DNA of 63,879 bases, the filler included, from Sphacelaria rigidula (taxonomy: Eukaryota): the NCBI GenBank assembly GCA_964200075.2. It is 10 parts of 10 records of this genome, joined end to end, with 100 filler letters (N's around TTAATTAATTAA, not from the genome) between each part and the next. Parts side by side here need not be neighbours in the genome. Positions count along the whole stretch, not along the records: positions 44,789 to 51,085 come from CAXNAA020020944.1; 9 more parts are not named here. One strand, 5' to 3'. The position numbers and the translations under genes were made by a program. Below are positions 44,301 through 52,239 of this stretch, piece by piece. The notes beneath the pieces are model-generated. The model made no database searches. It was not told the origin of the DNA and saw only the letters and a program-made list of their open reading frames with translations. Position 1 is the stretch's first letter, and the number at the start of each line of letters is the position of its first letter.

Positions 44301-45124
44301 AACGGTACCCGGTAACCCTTCAGTGTATGAAATTTGAACATTATATTTTGATGGGTGTATGGTTTTGAGTGAGCGAGGGGGGGGGAAGGCGTACTCATTT
44401 GTTGCTTGCCTTAGTCGTTTGACCACTGACCACGCATGTCTTTCGAGACGGAGCACCGTTCCGACTCCTAATAGAGACACCTTCGACATTCTGGCGCTCA
44501 TCACGTTTCTTCAAAAGCTCATTTCGTTTCTTCCATACATTACACAAGAACCTCTTACATATCTTATACCTGTTTCGCCGTCTCTGGCCACCATCCATCT
44601 CCTAGTATAGCCATCGTTTTCTCCCTACCGTCTAATGCATCGAACGGTTTCATGACACCTTTGTTCACGTCTCGCATTTCCCCCTCTANNNNNNNNNNNN
44701 NNNNNNNNNNNNNNNNNNNNNNNNNNNNNNNNTTAATTAATTAANNNNNNNNNNNNNNNNNNNNNNNNNNNNNNNNNNNNNNNNNNNNTGTTTTTTTTTC
44801 CGCGCTCGGCTTGGTTTTCCTCCCTTTTCCCCCCCCCCCCCCCCCCCTTTTTTCCCTGTTCCTTCTTTTTCTCAGAGCGTGTTTCAGTTTCGTTTTTCTT
44901 GGATACGTCTGTCATGAGACCACGGCTGGACCCCTGGGGGGTCAGTTGAAGTGCGACAATCAATCAAATCAATCAATGGTTGCTCGTGTGGAAGTGTTGG
45001 CTCACATTCGCGTTGCGGTCAGAACGCAAGTTATTGGCCCCCTCTCTCCTATGTCATTGGCTTCCCATCGAAAATATTTTCCGCAAGCACCCTCCTCTTG
45101 CCCCCATGTGTTGCGCCCTACCAG

Positions 45125-46232
45125 CTTTGGTGTCCTGTGCTTCGAGGTGGCCTCCCGGACAGAGCCATTCAAGGGAAAGAGACCTGCCCAGGTTATCGGA
45201 GCGGTACTCTACAAAGAAGAGCGGCCTCAAATTCCAGAATGGGCGTCTGCGTCGCCCGATGTTGTTCCTCTGATGGAGCAATGCTGGAGCCAAGACCCTG
45301 CGAAGCGCCCCAAGGGATTTGGACCCGTAGTTCGGACGCTGGCGAGTGTGGTATCGTGTGTCGGAGACCCTCGCAATCATAGCGTTGCTGCCGTTCATGC
45401 CACGTTGTCATCAGGTGCCAAGCGAGCTAGGGTAATGTGCGTGAGAACAGCACCACCTGCGGTTGGTGGCGGTGTTGACGTGTCATCGAGTCGGATGAAC
45501 CCCGCGTCCCAACCGGCTGGAGCCGATCCCGAGGCCACTCCTGATGAATGCAACGAGCTGCCGCCCGCAGTGTGCAGCGCGGTGTGGGGTAGTGGTAGGG
45601 TGCCGGTTGATCGTAGCATACGAGTTGCTACTGAGATGCTCACCGAAAATGACGTTGTAATGAGTGTTGATGCCGACAACACAATTTCCGAAATCAAGGA
45701 GGTGGTTCGAAAGCGGGAAGGAATCCATCCTGACGAGCAGTGTTTGACCTTCGCTGGCCGTGTGCTGGAAGATAACAGGACGGTGAGAGACTGCAACATT
45801 TATGGCGGGTGCACCCTCCACCTGGTCTTCAGGCGTTGCGCGGTTGATCATAGCATGGTTGATCGCGGCATGAAAATATTTATCAAAACGCTCACGGGTG
45901 TAACGTTAGTGATACATGTTGACCCCGACAACACAGTGTTTGAAATGAAGCTAAGGATTCAAGACCAGACTGGAATACCTCCTTCCCAGCAGCGGTTGAT
46001 CTTCGCTGGAAAACAACTACCGCACGGTGACACGGTGAGAGACTACAACATATCGGAAGGGTGCATCCTCCGCCTGGTCCACAAGTTTCGCGGGGGCAAA
46101 CCCGTGATCCTTTTGTACCCGTCAGCCCCCCTAGATGCCACAGTGGCGCTGAAGCTGAGCCCGCTCTGGAGCCTCTCTGCACTGTATCCAAAACTTCCAA
46201 GCAAGGTGCGGCAAGATATCTCAGACCCCAAG
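45125..46232 (+). CDS. Exon A of a kinase-Ubl-Ubl-unknown-domain fusion gene: TKL kinase subdomains IX-XI, linker, Ubl1 (about 45618-45839), Ubl2 (45870-46097), start of the KPVIxLYP domain
   Basis: (S)[15 protein letters not shown]...RPQIP...[14 protein letters not shown] is a kinase C-lobe. [10 protein letters not shown]...[11 protein letters not shown]...FRGG is 76 aa, 43/76 identical to canonical ubiquitin by manual count. Acceptor CCAG| (phase 2), donor AAG|GTAAGC. Confidence 0.93.
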
Positions 46233-46492
46233 GTAAGCCCGCTGCTTTGGATTCATACTTCCCGCGTTGCGGGTAGCGCAACAGCAACTCTCCTGACGCT
46301 TGTTTGTCGATGCCTGCGTCGAGCAACCCTCAACCCTTGACTTCCTTCGCACCGTCGAAGCCACGCCTTTCATTGTCTCACGTTGACCAAGCCATCGGTG
46401 ACCAGCTAGATACATAGGTATGTACATATACATTTACATGTTTGAACGAAGCTCTCAACAACTTGCTCGATGTTTCACTCGATGAGTTCCAG

Positions 46493-46682
46493 GCCGTCGT
46501 GGCTGGCGGCCAGCAGTACGAGTGGAGCGTTCACGCCAATCCCGACGGCTCTCTCCAAGATCTGAGCACCGGCAGGGAGTACCCGTACCTCTTCTGGGAA
46601 GCAGACTCTTCCGATGGCTGCGTGTGCAGCACCTTTGGGCTGGACGAGACCGAGTCGTTTTGCGTAGCGGGTGACGCAGCAG
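46493..46682 (+). CDS. Exon B of the fusion gene (WSVHANPDGSL...GREYPYLFWEA)
   Basis: Acceptor TTCCAG| (phase 0), donor CAG|GTACTA (phase 1); in frame with exons A and C. Confidence 0.9.
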
Positions 46683-47298
46683 GTACTATGTAGCTGCCGC
46701 CGCTCCGCGCACAACGTGATGCAATTTATGCAAGGACGTGCACACGTTGCTCACGTTCGTCCGTGAATACGCTTCTACCGAACCAAGGACGTAGATGCAC
46801 ATACTTTAGCGAGGAAGATGAATCCACCCAGCTCCTTACCCGTACAAAAAAGACACTTCGAAGGAAACTCCAGAACTTGTTTTGGAAGACGGGGATCTTC
46901 GACCGAAGGGAGTAGCGTGGTGTCATCAAATCGCTCTCAACACTTCCAAATACCTTCAGAAAAGGCTGAGAGTTGTAGTGAGCGTAGACACATCGTTCAA
47001 CGCCTTCTGTCGTAGCTTGTGTGCTCCCGTTGTCTTCAGGGCAATGTACCCCATTTCGCTGCGAATGTACGTACTTTAGTTTCGTTATTGTGGCGAAGTG
47101 TTGCCCAAATTTTAGTTCATGTTCCGAAATATCATCTGTATCCTACCCCGATCGAGAGGAGATTTCAAACCTGGGGCACGCCGAGCGCCTTCTGCGATGT
47201 TTGATGCCCTCTTAACACCTATGACGTGCCCCTCCCACGCCGAACGCAATCCTCCATTGTGACGCACATATAGTATTCTCCCCCGCGAAATCCGGAAG

Positions 47299-47500
47299 GT
47301 GTGTTCCTCGACCTTGCCCTGGAACGCCTTGGCCTCAACATGCGGGAGCGCTGCGATATGGTGACGTACTGGCTGCCGCAGCTGGAGGCGTCCAACTTTA
47401 GCGCCATCTACTTCGTAAGGACAGCGCTTTACGAGCAAGCTGCCCGCCTGACCATCGTGCCTCCCCCGGACGTCACGATCCGTGTCTTCATGGCCTTCAG
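47299..47500 (+). CDS. Exon C of the fusion gene (FLDLALERLGL..RERCDMVTYWLPQL...PPPDVTIRVFMAF)
   Basis: Acceptor GAAG| (phase 1), donor CAG|GTATGT (phase 2). Confidence 0.9.
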
Positions 47501-47928
47501 GTATGTCATGGCTGCCTTCACGTGTGTTTGACTGGTTGCGCCGTACCAATGGGATGTCGTGACTCGTCTTTAGGTACGAAAGCGGCATGGAGGACCCACG
47601 AAAGAACCCTCTTATATTTTTTTGAAAATACAAAAATATGATACATATATTCGGTGCTTGGTTGCCTCACTGAACCTCGGCCGGTTGTCAACGATTCAGG
47701 AGCCGCTGCTGATGGTTGGTAAACTCTAGTTGCCATAGCGGCTATGCCATCGTTTCAATGCCAATGTTCCGGGATGAAAACGCCTTGTAGAATCGAGGAC
47801 TCACTCCAATCCAGTGGTCACATGCACTGCCATATTTTCATATATATATTTTTATCATGGCCACGTTCGATTCTAAAGCCATTCGGCTTCCGCACTAAAC
47901 TTATCCGTGTACGTTGTTTCCTGTGCAG

Positions 47929-48055
47929 AGGTTTGGACGCGTACGACGCGGAGCTGGATACTGCTAAGGTGGACGAGCTGCAAGCGCCCGCCAGGAAGGG
48001 ATTTGTGGTCGTAGAGTGGGGAGGCATGAATCTCAACGGGGTCGCGCAGGACTGA
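47929..48055 (+). CDS. Terminal exon D of the fusion gene (...ARKGFVVVEWGGMNLNGVAQD*)
   Basis: Acceptor CTGTGCAG| (phase 2), TGA stop at 48053-48055. Confidence 0.9.
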
Positions 48056-49167
48056 TGTAAAAACGTGCGAAAAGTTGTTCTTGTGCGCGACGGATGTCCG
48101 TGGGGATCAAACGGAGCAGTAGTGATAGCATAGGTGTATGGTGGTTTTTGGCTCTTGGGGAATAACGGTTATGCCGTCAGCTTAGGGGTGGATTTTTGTG
48201 TGGAATTGTTTTGATCCGAGAAATTCGAGGGATCTTTCTGTGTTCTAAGCTGGCAGATACGGCTCAGGTGTAGAGACAAGAGGCTGAGGTGTGAGTGTCT
48301 TGGTGCTGTTTCAATTTGTAACTCGAAGCATTTTGCGGCACGCGGTCATGTAAGACAGATGATACATCGCAACGATATTCTCCGGGTTGCACTGTTCATG
48401 AGGGGCTGCGGGTGATCGGTCATGCTCGTGCTCAAAGATGATATGCATGTGCATGAGACGTGTACTTGAATGCAGAGGAGTTGGGTGTCGAAATTGGATT
48501 ATCATATTTGGGGTAATTACGGATAGAAGGGCTGTTTTGCCATTCGGGAGTTTTTCCTTGACCCGTATTAAGGACTAATGCCGAGATAGCTCCCCCACAA
48601 AAAGTGCACCGGAGACCATCCGAAAAACCGGCTGCGATCCCTCTATTGGGCTCGTTTGCAGCGATTTCACCCACATGAAAGGCGTGTAGCAGTCTGAAAT
48701 CAGCTATAATGCCCAAATGAGCCGCGTCGTGCAGCGCGAAACCAGCTCTAACGGCATTTTTTATCATCGCCTCCGCGCACGTTTTTGGCCGGTTCGGGGG
48801 GGGGCTATCTCGGCAGCAGTCTAAGGTATACCCGATATCATGCTTGCAGAGAGGATCCAAGGAACGGGCAAGATTTGAGATGTGGCTCCAATTCTGACGG
48901 AGTTCGATTATGTCAGCTTCCCCCACCTATTCGGTGGGCTGCCTGTCAAGTGTTCGTGAAATAGTGTTTATAGTGTGAATTTTGTGTGTATGATCGGTAT
49001 AATATAATACACACATGGTTTTCTTGTCAATCCTGGCCTGGAACGGCCACCCGCTTATCCCGACGATGTAACTGGAACACGTGAAATCCGATTAGGGGGG
49101 TGCGCGGATTAATTTGATGAGGCAGACGGAGACGGGAACGGACGAAACACGAAAATATTGATGTGCT

Positions 49168-49437
49168 GAGCAACCCTACGGTAGGGGTTGCACTTTTTGT
49201 TTCTGGGTCACTTTTGTGTGGGAGCCAAAATATAGGGCTTACTGTGCAATCCAAATCTCCGAGGACCGGACACCCAGAAACATTATGTTTGCACGCAGGA
49301 GCCTTTTCGTGAATCGGTATCATTTTCAGTGTGTTTCAAGTAAAAATGATGCGGATTCTCAAAATAATCCGTCCAACACCCCGAGCAACCCCAAGAAACG
49401 TTTTCGCTAGAAAAGTACAACCCCTACCGTAGCGTTC
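49168..49437. mobile_element. Divergent Sola-like MITE
   Basis: tgct|GAGCAACCCTACGGTAGGGGTTG ... CAACCCCTACCGTAGCGTTC|tgct; the right TIR is slightly truncated. Confidence 0.65.
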
Positions 49438-50337
49438 TGCTGAGAAGCAAACCCACAGTTTGGCGACTTTTGCATGCCGTAGCTTCATTCTTTGGGGATG
49501 GAAAGCAGAGATGTCGGGGCCATGGAACAGTGAGCTGACCAGAAGTTGTGGCGGATTTGGTTTTCTGTTTTGCTTTTTTTTCCAAGCTTGAAACCACGGG
49601 CTTAGTTCCCCGGAAAGGTTCAAGCAGGATCACTAAATCGTTGACCAAGGGGCTGGGCATGTGGCGTGTTTGGGAGCCGAACGAAGAACGATGATGAGGC
49701 AAGTTGCCGCTCAAGATCTGTTCATAAGCAGCCTTTGTGTCTAATGAGAGGGAAGGGGAGGAAATCGTCCAATGCTGTTGAAACGTATACACCACCTACT
49801 CGGGTTACGTAGCCCCGAGCGGAGTACGCACTTGCTTTGTGATCGGTAACACCGGGGAGAGATGGACTGATCTCATGAGACCACGCTCTCGTCCCGAGGG
49901 AGGAGAGGGGTTCAAAGAGTGAAAAAAAAAATGTCATCATGGCTATTTGTATGATGTTACTTCATCCGGAGCCGCCCCAAATTGTAGGTGATAGCAAACG
50001 CCAACTAGCCGAGTGAAATTAAGGGCTATTCTGAGAGCTCCTCATCGAGCTCAAAGACATGGCAAAAGTAGCCGAGTTAACGTATGAAATACAAAATATA
50101 CAAGGGCAAGAGTTGGGATATAACAAATGCCCCCTTACGTTCCCACAGCTCTGAGGTGCTTCATAACAGATAGCGTTTTGGAAACAACAAAGCGATCTCA
50201 GCTGCTGGATCGCTTCGTCCAAACCCCTTTGAGTTTCTCGAAGACGAATCCAAGTAACGAACAATAGAGAGGGGCTAATCTCAAATGCGGTTTGCTCCCT
50301 TTTATCTCCAACAATTATCGACAACAAATTCACTTAA

Positions 50338-50435
50338 CCCTAAGACCGCGAGATTAGTCTTTCTGGACCACGCATACTTTTTTTCACTTGAAATTGATAC
50401 CGATTCAACAAAAGACTAACCTCGCGGTCTAAGGG
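50338..50435. mobile_element. piggyBac-like MITE (98 bp)
   Basis: TTAA|CCCTAAGACCGCGAGATTAGTCTT ... AAGACTAACCTCGCGGTCTAAGGG|TTAA. Confidence 0.88.
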
Positions 50436-52239
50436 TTAACGACAAATAGGGAATCCTGGAAAATTGAAACGATATTTTTTAATAGGAACAAACAAAGATC
50501 AAAATTTGAAATAATAGTGGCAGATGATACGCGTTAATGGCGTCTATTTCCCTCCCGAAAAGTGGAATGGCTTAGGTCCGAGACAGGCGAGGTATTTGCC
50601 TCCGCATGTACCGGACACGCTCGGCATTTTCTTCTTGCGTCCTGGCGAGGTAGACCGAACCAAGACGACCCGGTATTACGCTGAGGTGGACAGGCACGAA
50701 GCTGAGTGCTTTGAGGGACGGAAGCAGACCAAACCGCACCCCGCCCGTGATGAGTGCACACGACGACAACTTAGATGTTCTGTGGGATGGAGCACTTAAA
50801 AAACCAGCACGAAGCAACAGCAGCTGTCCAGCTAGCGATGCATGCGTGAACCCATTGATGGATTTGCGATCCGGCGGTGTAACGACAATTCATCACGGCT
50901 TGCTTGTGTCATTGAAATATCAACACAAACACCCGACCGCCCGCACAGCAGCAGCAGTAGTGTGGTGCAGTGTATGTAGCAAAAACAGCGCGTACACGTT
51001 GTTGTTGAAATCTCAGACAACAACAACAAATTGTGAGAATTGAGGTTTAACTTCGAGATGAGGCTCAAGCCTAAAACAGTGCTTTNNNNNNNNNNNNNNN
51101 NNNNNNNNNNNNNNNNNNNNNNNNNNNNNTTAATTAATTAANNNNNNNNNNNNNNNNNNNNNNNNNNNNNNNNNNNNNNNNNNNNCTGCAACCTCAAATT
51201 TGGACGTTATAGACCTTGCACGAGGTCTGGCCACCCGTGTGTGTTATGGTAGGCTCAAGAAAAGGAGGGTTAGCTTCCCTATCCCATGTCTATGTCCGGG
51301 CTGTGATATGGTGTCGGAGAAAAGACACGAAAAAAATAACGGTAGAGGGAGGAATGTAGAGAAAGAGAAGAAGAAGGAAACTCAAGTGGAACGGGAAAAC
51401 ACATCGTTACTGAGAAAAAGGAGGAAATACGGTTGGGGGAAACATGAAAGAAAAAGAAAGTCCAGCTTTGGTACATCATGTCTATATCCATTTTGTGCGC
51501 TTCTGGGGGGACCCAAGTTGGTTTATTTAGGTTTTTGCATGTCTGCTGTGTCTGTCGGTCCGGGACTTTCTTTGTCAGGTGGCGGTCCCTGGTATATGTA
51601 CGGTGACGGCCCGTATAGTCGACGTCTAGGTTTTGGTGGCTTGTTTGTACAGCGCCGTTGCCACTCGACGCCAATCCAAAAGTCTGGAGGAGGGGAGCGA
51701 TGCCGGTGGTGAAGTGGGGCAAGTATGAGGCGCCGATCCGATGGAGCAAGGGAGCGCGAGACCATGGAAGAATGCAGAGGCCAGAGATGGATTCCGAAGG
51801 ATAGTATACTCCATATGTGGCCACGTCGAGCGTTCATTCGCTGACAACTTCGGATTGATAGTGGTCGATTAACGCATTGCGTAATTTTGATTCTGCATGA
51901 GGCTTAGGAATCATTGACTTCGAGTGAAAGCGCAGTAATGCGACTACTGCCCGCCTGCAGTGATTTGACTGAGCAGGCATCATATTTGCCTCAGTATTTG
52001 GCATATTTTATTTCTTGTTTAATTTATATTTCGACTAGCCATATGATGAGAGATTATCACGTATGGTTTTGTGGGCAAATGTCCTGGTTAAAAGTTTCGT
52101 GAGGTTAAAACCTGTTTTTTGACCCCTAATTATTTTACCTGGTTTTGGTATTGTTAGTCATATTTTATCGCATTATTCAAGTAAGCCTGTTGTTGGGTAT
52201 TTAGGAATGGTTTACGCTATGTCATCTGCCTGAAGCCAT

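What the first reader, a model, noticed from the sequence alone, without database searches (positions are those of the whole stretch)
46098..48055. KPVIxLYP...VVEWGG domain: bacterial-type unknown domain, here intron-containing
Seen: the full ordered motif set is split by three spliceosomal introns, so this is a genuine nuclear gene, not contamination. From recall, not verified here: this motif series occurs in hypothetical proteins of various bacteria and in fungal proteins where it also follows a ubiquitin LRGG. Inference: a patchy bacteria/fungi/brown-alga distribution with repeated fusion behind ubiquitin would suggest horizontal transfer or convergent use of ubiquitin as a removable cap on a domain that needs a free N-terminus.
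Basis: partly seen in the sequence, partly recalled or inferred. Interest (0 to 1): 0.72.

Follow-up and report, generated by a model that had tools for sequence, protein, structure and literature searches.

The report
Ubiquitin-capped unnamed domain in brown alga
A brown-alga gene joins a protein kinase, two ubiquitin-like units and a widespread but unnamed domain that in eukaryotes always starts right after a ubiquitin or SUMO di-glycine, which suggests a new class of cut-to-release fusion proteins.

Summary
Window 46098-48055 encodes a 217-residue domain (KPVILLYP ... YLFWE ... VVEWGG) in four exon pieces. All three GT-AG introns are bridged by transcript-like contigs in 3 of the 4 runs laid, from 2 studies. 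The organism is Sphacelaria rigidula.

The first piece shares one exon with a ubiquitin ending FRGG, a second ubiquitin-like unit and a kinase C-lobe. One contig carries this reading frame 1417 nt further 5'.

The domain matches no model in Pfam, NCBIfam, PADLOC or PHROGs and no solved structure. Its confident AlphaFold model (pLDDT 92) has no PDB fold match (best Z 3.9).

It is very common in bacteria as the C-terminal module of cell-surface proteins. The ubiquitin-fused forms come from brown algae, another stramenopile, volvocine green algae, basidiomycetes and one Myxococcales contig. They group as one clade beside Myxococcota/Bdellovibrionota proteins.

In 91 of 99 fused cases the ubiquitin-like unit abuts the lysine with no linker, and 73 of 99 keep GG. 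Brown-alga paralogs swap ubiquitin for SUMO at the same junction.

Best reading (about 50%): a precursor cut after GG. A free N-terminus is not supported as a need, nor are repeated independent fusions. The domain's activity is unknown.

The parts
45125..45314 (+). Kinase C-lobe (subdomains IX-XI). This is the start of the long exon. The upstream kinase exons are not on this 6.3-kb contig.
   Evidence: PF07714 matches at E 8.8e-8, 32.2 bits against a cut-off of 23.1, on residues 12-75 of P0005. Transcript contigs continue 5' of about 45122. The loose end read together with the window letters gives the DVYSFGV motif (my own translation).
45639..45833 (+). First ubiquitin-like unit, ending ...LVFRR without a di-glycine.
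   Evidence: It is one of the two PF00240 stretches. BLASTP gives 38% identity to the ubiquitin unit of P0034 over residues 184-248 of P0005.
45870..46097 (+). Second unit: a ubiquitin of 76 residues ending FRGG.
   Evidence: Best PF00240 stretch, residues 263-332 of P0005. The whole-protein E is 3.4e-42 for the two stretches together. It is 46% identical to the ubiquitin-plus-junction region of P0034.
46098..46232 (+). Domain piece 1 (KPVILLYP...), the 3' end of the long exon 45125-46232.
   Evidence: It aligns with the Ectocarpus proteins. The donor site is confirmed by the joint.
46233..46492 (+). Intron 1 (260 nt, GT..AG).
   Evidence: A joint skipping 260 nt is present in X1, X4 and X7 and absent in X5.
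46493..46682 (+). Domain piece 2 (W, PDG, YLFWE). It ends in phase 1.
46683..47298 (+). Intron 2 (616 nt, GT..AG).
   Evidence: A joint skipping 616 nt is present in X1, X4 and X7.
47299..47500 (+). Domain piece 3 (FLD, LGL, YWLP, PxPD, IRVFMAF). It ends in phase 2.
47501..47928 (+). Intron 3 (428 nt, GT..AG).
   Evidence: A joint skipping 428 nt is present in X1, X4 and X7.
47929..48055 (+). Domain piece 4 (...GFVVVEWGG...) and the TGA stop at 48053-48055.
48056..48400 (+). 3' untranslated region, at least to the end of the stretch laid.
   Evidence: X4 record 10, X1 records 6-7 and X7 records 26-27 run on to 48289-48400.

Best explanation
Shown:
- The finding is the 3' part of an expressed, spliced nuclear gene of Sphacelaria rigidula.
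- The open reading frame runs kinase, linker, ubiquitin-like unit without GG, ubiquitin ending FRGG, then a 217-residue domain.
- The domain belongs to a very large family that has no name in the libraries searched and no fold match in the PDB.
- The window copy sits in the ubiquitin-fused branch of that family.

Inferred mechanism:
- The protein is made as a precursor.
- A deubiquitinase cuts after the di-glycine. In the SUMO-capped paralogs a SUMO protease would do this.
- The cut frees the C-terminal domain, which then begins with Lys-Pro-Val.
- The kinase keeps a ubiquitin with an exposed GG end.
- The ubiquitin or SUMO unit thus acts as a removable cap that couples production of the domain to its upstream enzyme and controls its release.

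Origin (inferred from the trees, no root): the domain came from bacteria, nearest the Myxococcota/Bdellovibrionota forms. It was fused to a ubiquitin-like unit probably once and then spread patchily among eukaryotes.

Biochemical activity of the domain: not known. My best guess (about 25%) is binding or hydrolysis of a glycan or cell-wall-type ligand. This rests on its bacterial company and on two invariant Glu residues, each next to an invariant Trp.

Odds: gene structure and family placement about 0.9. Cleavage after GG about 0.5.
For: Gene and transcript:
- The three introns are bridged in 3 of the 4 runs laid, from 2 studies.
- One 3594-nt contig (X4 record 10) spans 45122-48400 through all three joints and runs 1417 nt further 5'.
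- There is no stop from 45125 to 46232.

Domains: Pfam finds the kinase C-lobe and two ubiquitin units.

Family:
- Profile search gives 487 proteins at E <= 1e-30.
- No model matches in Pfam, NCBIfam, PADLOC or PHROGs.
- No PDB sequence reaches better than E 0.29.
- The AlphaFold model of the bare domain has pLDDT 92.3. Its best Foldseek E is 0.22. 0 of 48161 chains reach Z >= 5.

Junction:
- Of 99 copies with a ubiquitin-like unit within 40 residues upstream, the linker is 0 in 91. The dipeptide is GG in 73.
- After removing near-copies, 65 of 86 have GG. The penultimate Gly is the most conserved position of the ubiquitin-like part (92%), and the last Gly stands at 78%.
- All 16 domain copies from the non-brown-algal proteins labelled (13 with organism names, the Myxococcales protein and a metagenomic U-box protein) have GG or GA before the Lys.

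Cap exchange:
- Brown-alga paralogs are 75-90% identical in the domain.
- They are only 12-28% identical between ubiquitin-type and SUMO-type caps.
- The cap of P0013 is 41-43% identical to human SUMO2/3 in the fold search.
- The junction is the same in both types.

Biochemical fit and precedent:
- Lys at the first position after the cut is compatible with deubiquitinase cutting. Only Pro is known to block it (textbook knowledge of the ubiquitin-fusion technique, recalled).
- Ubiquitin-NiSOD and other algal ubiquitin fusions to bacterial-type partners are a precedent (PMC6332867; abstract and passages read).

Origin:
- The fused clade has SH-aLRT 97 and 96.
- Its neighbours are Myxococcota/Bdellovibrionota proteins, with support 87-92.
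Against: - Cleavage was not observed.
- 26 of 99 fused copies lack an intact GG: GD 11, GA 4, GS 2, LR/LK 6, others 3. Of these 26, 23 keep a GG-length or GG-deleted junction (17 with linker 0, 6 with the GG deleted), which points to structural coupling rather than cutting.
- Two Ectocarpus paralogs (P0007, P0014) have the GG deleted outright.
- The two-domain model of P0013 has pTM 0.85, which would fit a packed, uncut unit. I could not inspect inter-domain error or coordinates.
- In the window the ubiquitin is not N-terminal. It sits behind a kinase and another ubiquitin-like unit, unlike the classical precursors.
- In bacteria the Lys-Pro start is just as invariant although it is internal. 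Its conservation is therefore not explained by cutting.
- The glycan idea rests on domain company only. Gene neighbourhoods in 18 bacterial loci (49 neighbour proteins scanned) showed no common operon.
- The eukaryotic proteins have no sign of secretion.
- The trees are 'quick' LG+G4 trees on subsamples, unrooted, with several long branches flagged.
Confidence: 0.5

Rival explanations
1. Uncut two-domain module. The ubiquitin-like unit is a permanent, tightly packed neighbour of the domain, as in kinases of the TBK1/IKK type that carry a ubiquitin-like domain behind the kinase. The linker-less junction is conserved for structural reasons. The GG is a slowly decaying relic of the founding fusion.
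For: - The zero-length linker is kept in copies with GD, GA or GS, and six further copies have the GG deleted.
- pTM is 0.85 for the SUMO-fragment-plus-domain model.
- The ubiquitin is internal in the window protein.
- The Lys-Pro start is invariant in bacteria too.
- The TBK1_ULD model hits the window's ubiquitin units at E 5.8e-9.
Against: - The penultimate Gly is the best-conserved position of the cap (92%). GG is kept in 65 of 86 non-redundant junctions although the caps have diverged to 12-28% identity.
- Ubiquitin-type and SUMO-type caps were exchanged while the GG-Lys junction stayed the same. This is hard to explain by packing alone, because the two caps have different surfaces.
- Integral ubiquitin-like domains of known proteins do not keep a terminal GG (established knowledge, recalled).
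Confidence: 0.33
2. Degradation timer. The fusion is cut, and the exposed N-terminal Lys marks the domain for rapid turnover as a destabilising residue of the Arg/N-degron pathway. In the GA, GD and GG-less variants the uncut ubiquitin itself sends the protein to the proteasome (ubiquitin-fusion-degradation route). In both cases the domain stays scarce.
For: - Lys is invariant at the first position (135 of 135, but the rows were chosen by a motif that requires it; 86 of 86).
- Cleavable and apparently uncleavable junctions coexist.
- The N-degron and UFD rules are established knowledge (recalled). UFD papers were seen only as search listings.
Against: - Lys-1 is equally invariant in bacteria, which lack this pathway.
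- In the models it starts the first beta strand. It may be buried. I could not measure exposure.
- There are no turnover data.
Confidence: 0.1
3. Not a working gene: a decaying copy of a multi-copy family, or a chimeric assembly of a kinase gene and a ubiquitin-domain gene.
For: - The family is multi-copy in brown algae, with several visibly damaged or partial public models (P0016, P0021, P0024).
- The contig is only 6.3 kb and starts inside the gene.
Against: - The frame is open across all four pieces, with all conserved positions kept.
- Spliced contigs occur in three runs of two studies, and exon depth far exceeds intron depth.
- One contig carries kinase, both ubiquitin-like units and the domain.
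- The kinase-ubiquitin-domain order also occurs in the green algae Astrephomene and Tetrabaena.
Confidence: 0.04

Closest known systems
Ubiquitin-NiSOD and other algal ubiquitin fusions (Sibbald et al. 2019, PMC6332867)
   Same: - A partner of bacterial type sits directly behind a ubiquitin.
- Distribution among eukaryotes is patchy.
- That paper proposes a single fusion after gene transfer, as the trees here suggest (passages read).
   Different: - The partner here is an unnamed domain, not a metalloenzyme whose first residue binds the metal.
- Bacterial relatives do not show a need for a free N-terminus.
- The cap can be SUMO-type.
- Kinases or E3 domains lie upstream of the ubiquitin.
- The paper does not mention Ectocarpus, brown algae or kinases (0 occurrences each).
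Classical ubiquitin precursors (ubiquitin-eL40, ubiquitin-eS31, polyubiquitin)
   Same: A ubiquitin ending in GG is followed at once by the partner, and the first residue after the cut is not Pro.
   Different: - Those are universal and the ubiquitin is N-terminal and nearly invariant.
- Here the caps are divergent, a quarter lack a clean GG, and the ubiquitin is internal.
(Properties of the classical precursors are recalled knowledge. PMC6332867 background passage.)
TBK1/IKK-type kinases with a ubiquitin-like domain behind the kinase
   Same: - The order is kinase, then ubiquitin-like unit, then a further C-terminal domain.
- The Pfam TBK1_ULD model gives a hit.
   Different: - The window units are true ubiquitin relatives with a terminal GG.
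- The C-terminal domain is unrelated to the helical scaffold domain of TBK1 (that architecture is recalled).
- The kinase similarity seen here is only generic.
CnaA-like isopeptide domains such as CLIPPER (PDB 9ifr; PMC12617251)
   Same: - A beta sandwich of bacterial surface proteins with a conserved Lys at the start of the first strand.
- It is the top structural row, with many pilin and adhesin rows below it.
   Different: - Z is only 3.9, within noise for this search.
- There is no conserved Asn or Asp partner in the last strand, which instead carries an invariant Glu.
- Two long helices are inserted.
- The survey treated its eukaryotic hits as false positives (passages read).

Membership tests
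Cleaved ubiquitin/SUMO fusion precursors | A beta-grasp ubiquitin or SUMO unit lies directly upstream of the partner. | tested here: met
   PF00240 matches on 45870-46097. SUMO-type caps occur in paralogs.
Cleaved ubiquitin/SUMO fusion precursors | A terminal di-glycine abuts the partner, and the next residue is not Pro. | tested here: met
   The window reads FRGG then Lys. Across the family, 73 of 99 have GG and 91 of 99 have no linker.
Cleaved ubiquitin/SUMO fusion precursors | The ubiquitin unit is the N-terminus of the precursor. | tested here: not met
   A kinase C-lobe and another ubiquitin-like unit lie upstream in the same exon and in the same transcript contig.
Cleaved ubiquitin/SUMO fusion precursors | The precursor is actually cut after GG in the cell. 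| not testable with these tools
   This needs protein work or proteomics.
Integral ubiquitin-like domain proteins (uncut) | The ubiquitin-like unit has no conserved terminal GG. | tested here: not met
   The penultimate Gly is 92% conserved and the last Gly 78%, among the best-kept cap positions.
CnaA-like intramolecular isopeptide domains | Lys in the first strand, a catalytic Asp/Glu, and a conserved Asn/Asp in the last strand. | tested here: not met
   The Lys is invariant. No Asn or Asp is conserved in the last strand, which reads GF-VVEWGG.
CnaA-like intramolecular isopeptide domains | Shared fold. | tested here: inconclusive
   The best row is 9ifr: Z 3.9, rmsd 3.6, 90 residues aligned.
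Known carbohydrate-binding or glycoside-hydrolase families in Pfam | A match to a family model. | tested here: inconclusive
   No model matches the domain itself. It sits beside GH9, GH11, CBM4_9 and dockerin in Ruminococcus proteins.
Protein kinase superfamily (upstream part of the gene) | A match to the kinase catalytic domain. | tested here: met
   C-lobe only: PF07714 at 32.2 bits against a cut-off of 23.1. The N-lobe exons are outside the window.

The most novel reading that the evidence does not exclude
A previously unnamed class of eukaryotic precursors in which a domain of bacterial ancestry and apparently new fold is capped interchangeably by ubiquitin or by SUMO. Cutting at GG would free the domain. 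It would also leave the upstream kinase, RING or U-box enzyme carrying a conjugation-ready ubiquitin or SUMO at its own C-terminus, so that the enzyme itself could be covalently attached to targets. The Myxococcales U-box-ubiquitin-domain protein would then be a bacterial copy that relies on a eukaryotic host's or prey's proteases.
Probability: 0.12. Interest if true: 0.85.

Novelty: new variant of a known kind. Interest (0 to 1): 0.62.

Why it matters
- The family has no model in four domain libraries and no solved relative, although 487 cluster representatives reach E <= 1e-30 and relatives were found at 583 stretches in bacterial species genomes. It deserves a family entry and a structure.
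- Natural fusions in which a whole folded domain follows SUMO's di-glycine are, to my knowledge (recalled, not searched), not described. Interchange of ubiquitin and SUMO on one partner would show that the shared property, a protease-cut GG end, is what is selected.
- The recurrent company of kinases and E3 domains upstream suggests a signalling device.
- In rumen and gut Clostridia the same module ends cellulosomal and surface proteins. A function found in one kingdom would therefore annotate thousands of proteins in the other.
- The public gene model for this locus is wrong at intron 1.

Tried and rejected
- Whole-genome search: no genome is held for this window.
- Earlier notes of this scan: nothing by place, sequence or words that bears on this.
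- Fold searches with the two-domain model returned only the SUMO part. I therefore folded a bare bacterial domain.
- PDB profile search with alignment A2 was swamped by ubiquitin. I repeated it with domain-only A3 and found nothing.
- ESM Atlas gave only unnamed bacterial and basidiomycete clusters, with scores of 0.93 and 0.83.
- Viral contigs: 3 of 55 pattern matches were relatives. All were of the bacterial type (membrane-anchored, or dockerin-SH3 forms). There is no giant-virus vector.
- Bacterial gene neighbourhoods showed housekeeping genes and no shared operon.
- Literature: the motif strings [22 protein letters not shown] and YLFWE gave one paper, an unrelated 1992 cancer paper. The searches 'ubiquitin fusion / brown alga / C-terminal extension' and 'ubiquitin fusion proteins / algae' found nothing on this domain.
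- RNA holders: no listed run is on record as RNA. X1, X4 and X7 are called RNA-like here only from their joints and their exon/intron depth.
- Isopeptide-domain idea: rejected as membership because no conserved Asn/Asp partner exists. I keep it only as a weak structural lead.
- Complex prediction of cap against domain (alignment A5, residues 176-253 against 254-470) was never accepted. The queue was full, so no result exists.
- Supplements of the two papers were not opened.
Full report
**What the window is**

N runs with stop-codon spacers recur about every 6.4 kb. The window is therefore a chain of roughly 6.3-kb contigs. The one that holds the finding is 44789-51085. Exon C of the finding is 100% identical to a public 227-residue protein of Sphacelaria rigidula that lies on a 6297-nt contig. 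No whole genome is held for this window.

**The observation**

Reading the DNA and the stop-to-stop frames shows one open frame from the contig's start to 46340. It ends ...FRGG, then KPVILLYP..., followed by GTAAGC. From GT/AG sites and frame I placed the coding pieces at 46098-46232, 46493-46682, 47299-47500 and 47929-48055. Joined by coordinates they give 217 residues without a stop.

The two split codons give Gly and Arg. These are the residues that Ectocarpus homologues have at those places.

Laying four public runs on 44789-48400 gave joints that skip 260, 616 and 428 nt with GT..AG ends at exactly these borders. The joints are in X1 and X4 (study P1) and in X7 (study P2). In those runs intron depth is 0-12 against 36-190 in the exons. 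X5 has even depth and none of the three joints, so it behaves as DNA. None of the runs is on record as RNA. I call three of them RNA-like from this behaviour only.

**The gene is larger than the finding**

The long exon starts at about 45125. Pfam finds a kinase C-lobe and two ubiquitin units in it. PF07714 scores 32.2 bits against a cut-off of 23.1. PF00240 has a whole-protein E of 3.4e-42 for its two stretches.

The first ubiquitin-like unit ends without GG. The second ends FRGG at 46097.

X4 record 10 (3594 nt) covers 45122-48400 through all three joints and continues 1417 nt further 5'. X7 record 22 continues 1410 nt. The loose end before 45122, read together with the window letters, gives the kinase motif DVYSFGV (my own translation). 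So kinase, both ubiquitin-like units and the domain lie in one reading frame on one assembled contig. The upstream kinase exons are not in the window.

The public model P0006 starts inside the second ubiquitin and splices intron 1 differently (RGGKP joined to FQAVV). That drops 43 residues of the domain. The contigs support my borders, not that model.

**The family**

Neither the exon pieces nor whole homologues match any Pfam model beyond ubiquitin-type ones. NCBIfam, PADLOC and PHROGs give nothing either. A domain-only profile finds no PDB sequence better than E 0.29.

A profile of the brown-alga proteins, searched against 1.84 billion cluster representatives, found 7600 proteins at E <= 0.001, 5045 at <= 1e-10 and 487 at <= 1e-30. 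That profile also held about 70 ubiquitin-like positions. The weaker counts therefore include plain ubiquitins, and two polyubiquitins stand among the best 150.

Most are Clostridia (Ruminococcus, Oscillospiraceae). Myxococcota, Bdellovibrionales, Elusimicrobiota, Bacteroidota and Gammaproteobacteria are also present.

**Bacterial forms**

My script found the ORF in 77 of the 80 loci kept. In all 77 the ORF ends 178-232 residues after the Lys, so the domain is always C-terminal.

Short forms begin with lipoprotein-like or signal-like N-termini (alignment A3; judged by eye).

Of the 50 longer ORFs scanned:
- 14 carry a dockerin
- 7 carry SH3_3
- 2 carry SLH
- 2 carry GH11
- 2 carry DUF3221
- 1 carries DUF285/LRR repeats
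- 1 carries an NADase-translocation F5/8 domain
- 1 carries U-box plus ubiquitin
- 24 carry nothing known

In Ruminococcus flavefaciens YL228 the order is CBM4_9, CelD_N, GH9, dockerin, then the domain. These are cell-surface or cellulosomal contexts. The neighbours of 18 loci (49 proteins scanned) are housekeeping genes with nothing in common.

**Eukaryotic forms**

The organisms named by the sources are:
- the brown algae Sphacelaria, several Ectocarpus species, Ascophyllum and Hapterophycus
- the stramenopile Cantina marsupialis
- the volvocine green algae Astrephomene and Tetrabaena
- the basidiomycetes Tulasnella, Lentinus, Agrocybe, Mycena, Rhizoctonia and Phenoliferia

Most hits are unnamed metagenomic proteins, so the true range is wider than this list.

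Architectures upstream of the ubiquitin-like unit are:
- RING plus kinase (Astrephomene)
- kinase (Tetrabaena)
- U-box
- NBR1-type Ig
- zf-HIT
- coiled-coil-like N-termini in Ectocarpus

The kinase-ubiquitin-domain order thus recurs outside brown algae. The kinase C-lobes are only 26-31% identical to the window's, so I cannot say whether this order is inherited or convergent.

**A bacterial ubiquitin-fused copy**

Locus L005 comes from a Myxococcales MAG. It encodes a 530-residue protein with U-box, ubiquitin ending SGG, and then KPVILLYP. It lies between bacterial genes for a sigma-70 factor, a PurU-like formyltransferase and a subtilase. It is 40-50% GC.

**The junction**

| Feature | Count of 99 |
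|---|---|
| Linker 0 | 91 |
| Linker -2 (GG deleted) | 6 |
| Linker +1 | 1 |
| Linker +5 | 1 |
| Dipeptide GG | 73 |
| GD | 11 |
| GA | 4 |
| GS | 2 |
| LR | 5 |
| LK, GK, MG, DG | 1 each |

After removing rows 80% or more alike, 65 of 86 have GG. The penultimate Gly is the best-kept position of the whole cap (92%). The last Gly stands at 78%.

Within brown algae the domains are 75-90% identical. The caps fall into a ubiquitin type (window, P0023, P0010, P0007) and a SUMO type (P0009, P0012, P0019), which are 12-28% identical to each other. The cap of P0013 is 41-43% identical to human SUMO2/3 in the fold search. The cap has therefore been exchanged on an almost unchanged domain while the GG-Lys junction stayed.

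**Phylogeny**

The first tree had 117 rows. It used all rows that I had labelled as named eukaryotes. It also used random subsamples: 30 of 81 bacterial-locus rows, 22 of 208 unnamed rows without GG, and 40 of 70 unnamed rows with GG. The method was quick LG+G4.

It splits a fused side of 61 rows from a bacterial side of 56 rows (SH-aLRT 97). Five fused rows (P0137 and the P0091 cluster) fall on the bacterial side. Holding all 66 fused rows together gave a log-likelihood 7.26 higher than the free search, with p-AU 0.59. A single origin of the fusion is not rejected, though the test cannot prove it.

A second tree of 83 rows added the non-Bacillota bacteria. It again gives a fused clade (96). 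Its nearest neighbours are Myxococcota and Bdellovibrionota proteins whose Lys follows an Arg (support 87-92).

Inside the fused clade the order is unresolved. Fungi and green algae group at 90. Brown algae and Cantina are not joined. This does not follow the eukaryote tree, but the trees are unrooted and several long branches were flagged.

**Structure**

AlphaFold2 with 74 homologues gave pLDDT 90.5 and pTM 0.85 for P0013, which is a SUMO fragment plus the domain. With 66 homologues it gave pLDDT 92.3 for a bare 209-residue bacterial domain.

The domain is a beta-rich body with two long helices in the middle. The KPV strand is the first strand.

Foldseek against the PDB found nothing better than E 0.22. 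An all-against-all search of 48161 chains found none at Z >= 5. The best was the CLIPPER isopeptide domain 9ifr (Z 3.9, rmsd 3.6, 90 residues aligned), followed by cohesins, pilins and adhesins near Z 3. By the tool's own yardstick that is noise. I could not obtain coordinates, so I cannot say whether the Lys is buried or near the invariant Glu residues.

**Conserved residues**

Across 66 sequences, in P0041 numbering:
- Invariant: K3, P4, P32, W116, P146, P148, E184, W185, G186.
- Nearly invariant: Y31, W45, G53, W69, E70, Y115, D149, R153 and others.

Two Glu residues, each beside a Trp, together with many aromatic residues, would suit sugar binding or hydrolysis. This is inference only.

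**How it most likely works**

The conserved, linker-less GG-Lys junction is kept through exchange of ubiquitin and SUMO caps. This is best explained by cutting after GG, as in the classical precursors and in the algal ubiquitin-NiSOD fusion (PMC6332867; abstract and passages read). Cutting would free the domain and leave the kinase with a GG-ended ubiquitin.

Four points count against this:
- a quarter of junctions lack a clean GG
- the ubiquitin is internal
- the Lys-Pro start is invariant in bacteria, where nothing is cut
- the two-domain model looks confidently packed

I put cutting at about 0.5, an uncut packed module at about 0.33, and a degradation-timer variant at about 0.1.

**Novelty**

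Ubiquitin fusions to bacterial-type partners are known. This partner, its size as a family, the SUMO/ubiquitin interchange and the upstream kinases and E3 domains are not in the papers I could search.

Noticed in passing
window 6300-57582 (N runs about every 6397 nt): The window is a chain of about ten contigs of roughly 6.3 kb each. They are joined by 100-nt spacers of N with stop codons in all frames. Features must not be read across these spacers.
   Followed up: partly
window 46098-46492: The public protein model for this locus (P0006, 227 aa) starts inside the second ubiquitin. It uses another intron 1 (KP joined to FQAVV) and so loses 43 residues of the domain. The transcript-like contigs support 46232/46493 instead.
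   Followed up: yes
L005 5107-6696: A Myxococcales MAG contig with bacterial neighbours encodes U-box, ubiquitin (ending SGG) and the domain in one 530-residue protein. It sits in the eukaryote-type clade. It is a candidate inter-kingdom transfer or an effector of a predatory bacterium.
   Followed up: partly
L026 2875-6543: Ruminococcus flavefaciens YL228 has the domain as the last module of a CBM4_9, CelD_N, GH9, dockerin cellulase. 14 of 50 other long bacterial ORFs carry a dockerin before the domain.
   Followed up: partly
P0025 (Tulasnella sp., 1276 aa): One fungal protein carries three ubiquitin-plus-domain units in a row. Two have RGA and one has RGG before the Lys.
   Followed up: no
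P0091 cluster and P0137: A small group of unnamed ubiquitin-fused copies (GG or GD junction) falls on the bacterial side of both trees, beside a Competibacteraceae protein. It could be a second, independent fusion or a long-branch effect. The AU test does not separate these.
   Followed up: partly
window 44789-45030: The start of the contig is a pyrimidine-rich, low-complexity stretch. Summed contig depth there runs from hundreds to hundreds of thousands, with many irregular joints, so it is a repeat shared with many other places.
   Followed up: no
P0007, P0014 (Ectocarpus): Two brown-alga paralogs have the di-glycine deleted (...LSLR then KPV) but keep an intact-looking domain. These are natural uncleavable variants useful as controls.
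   Followed up: no
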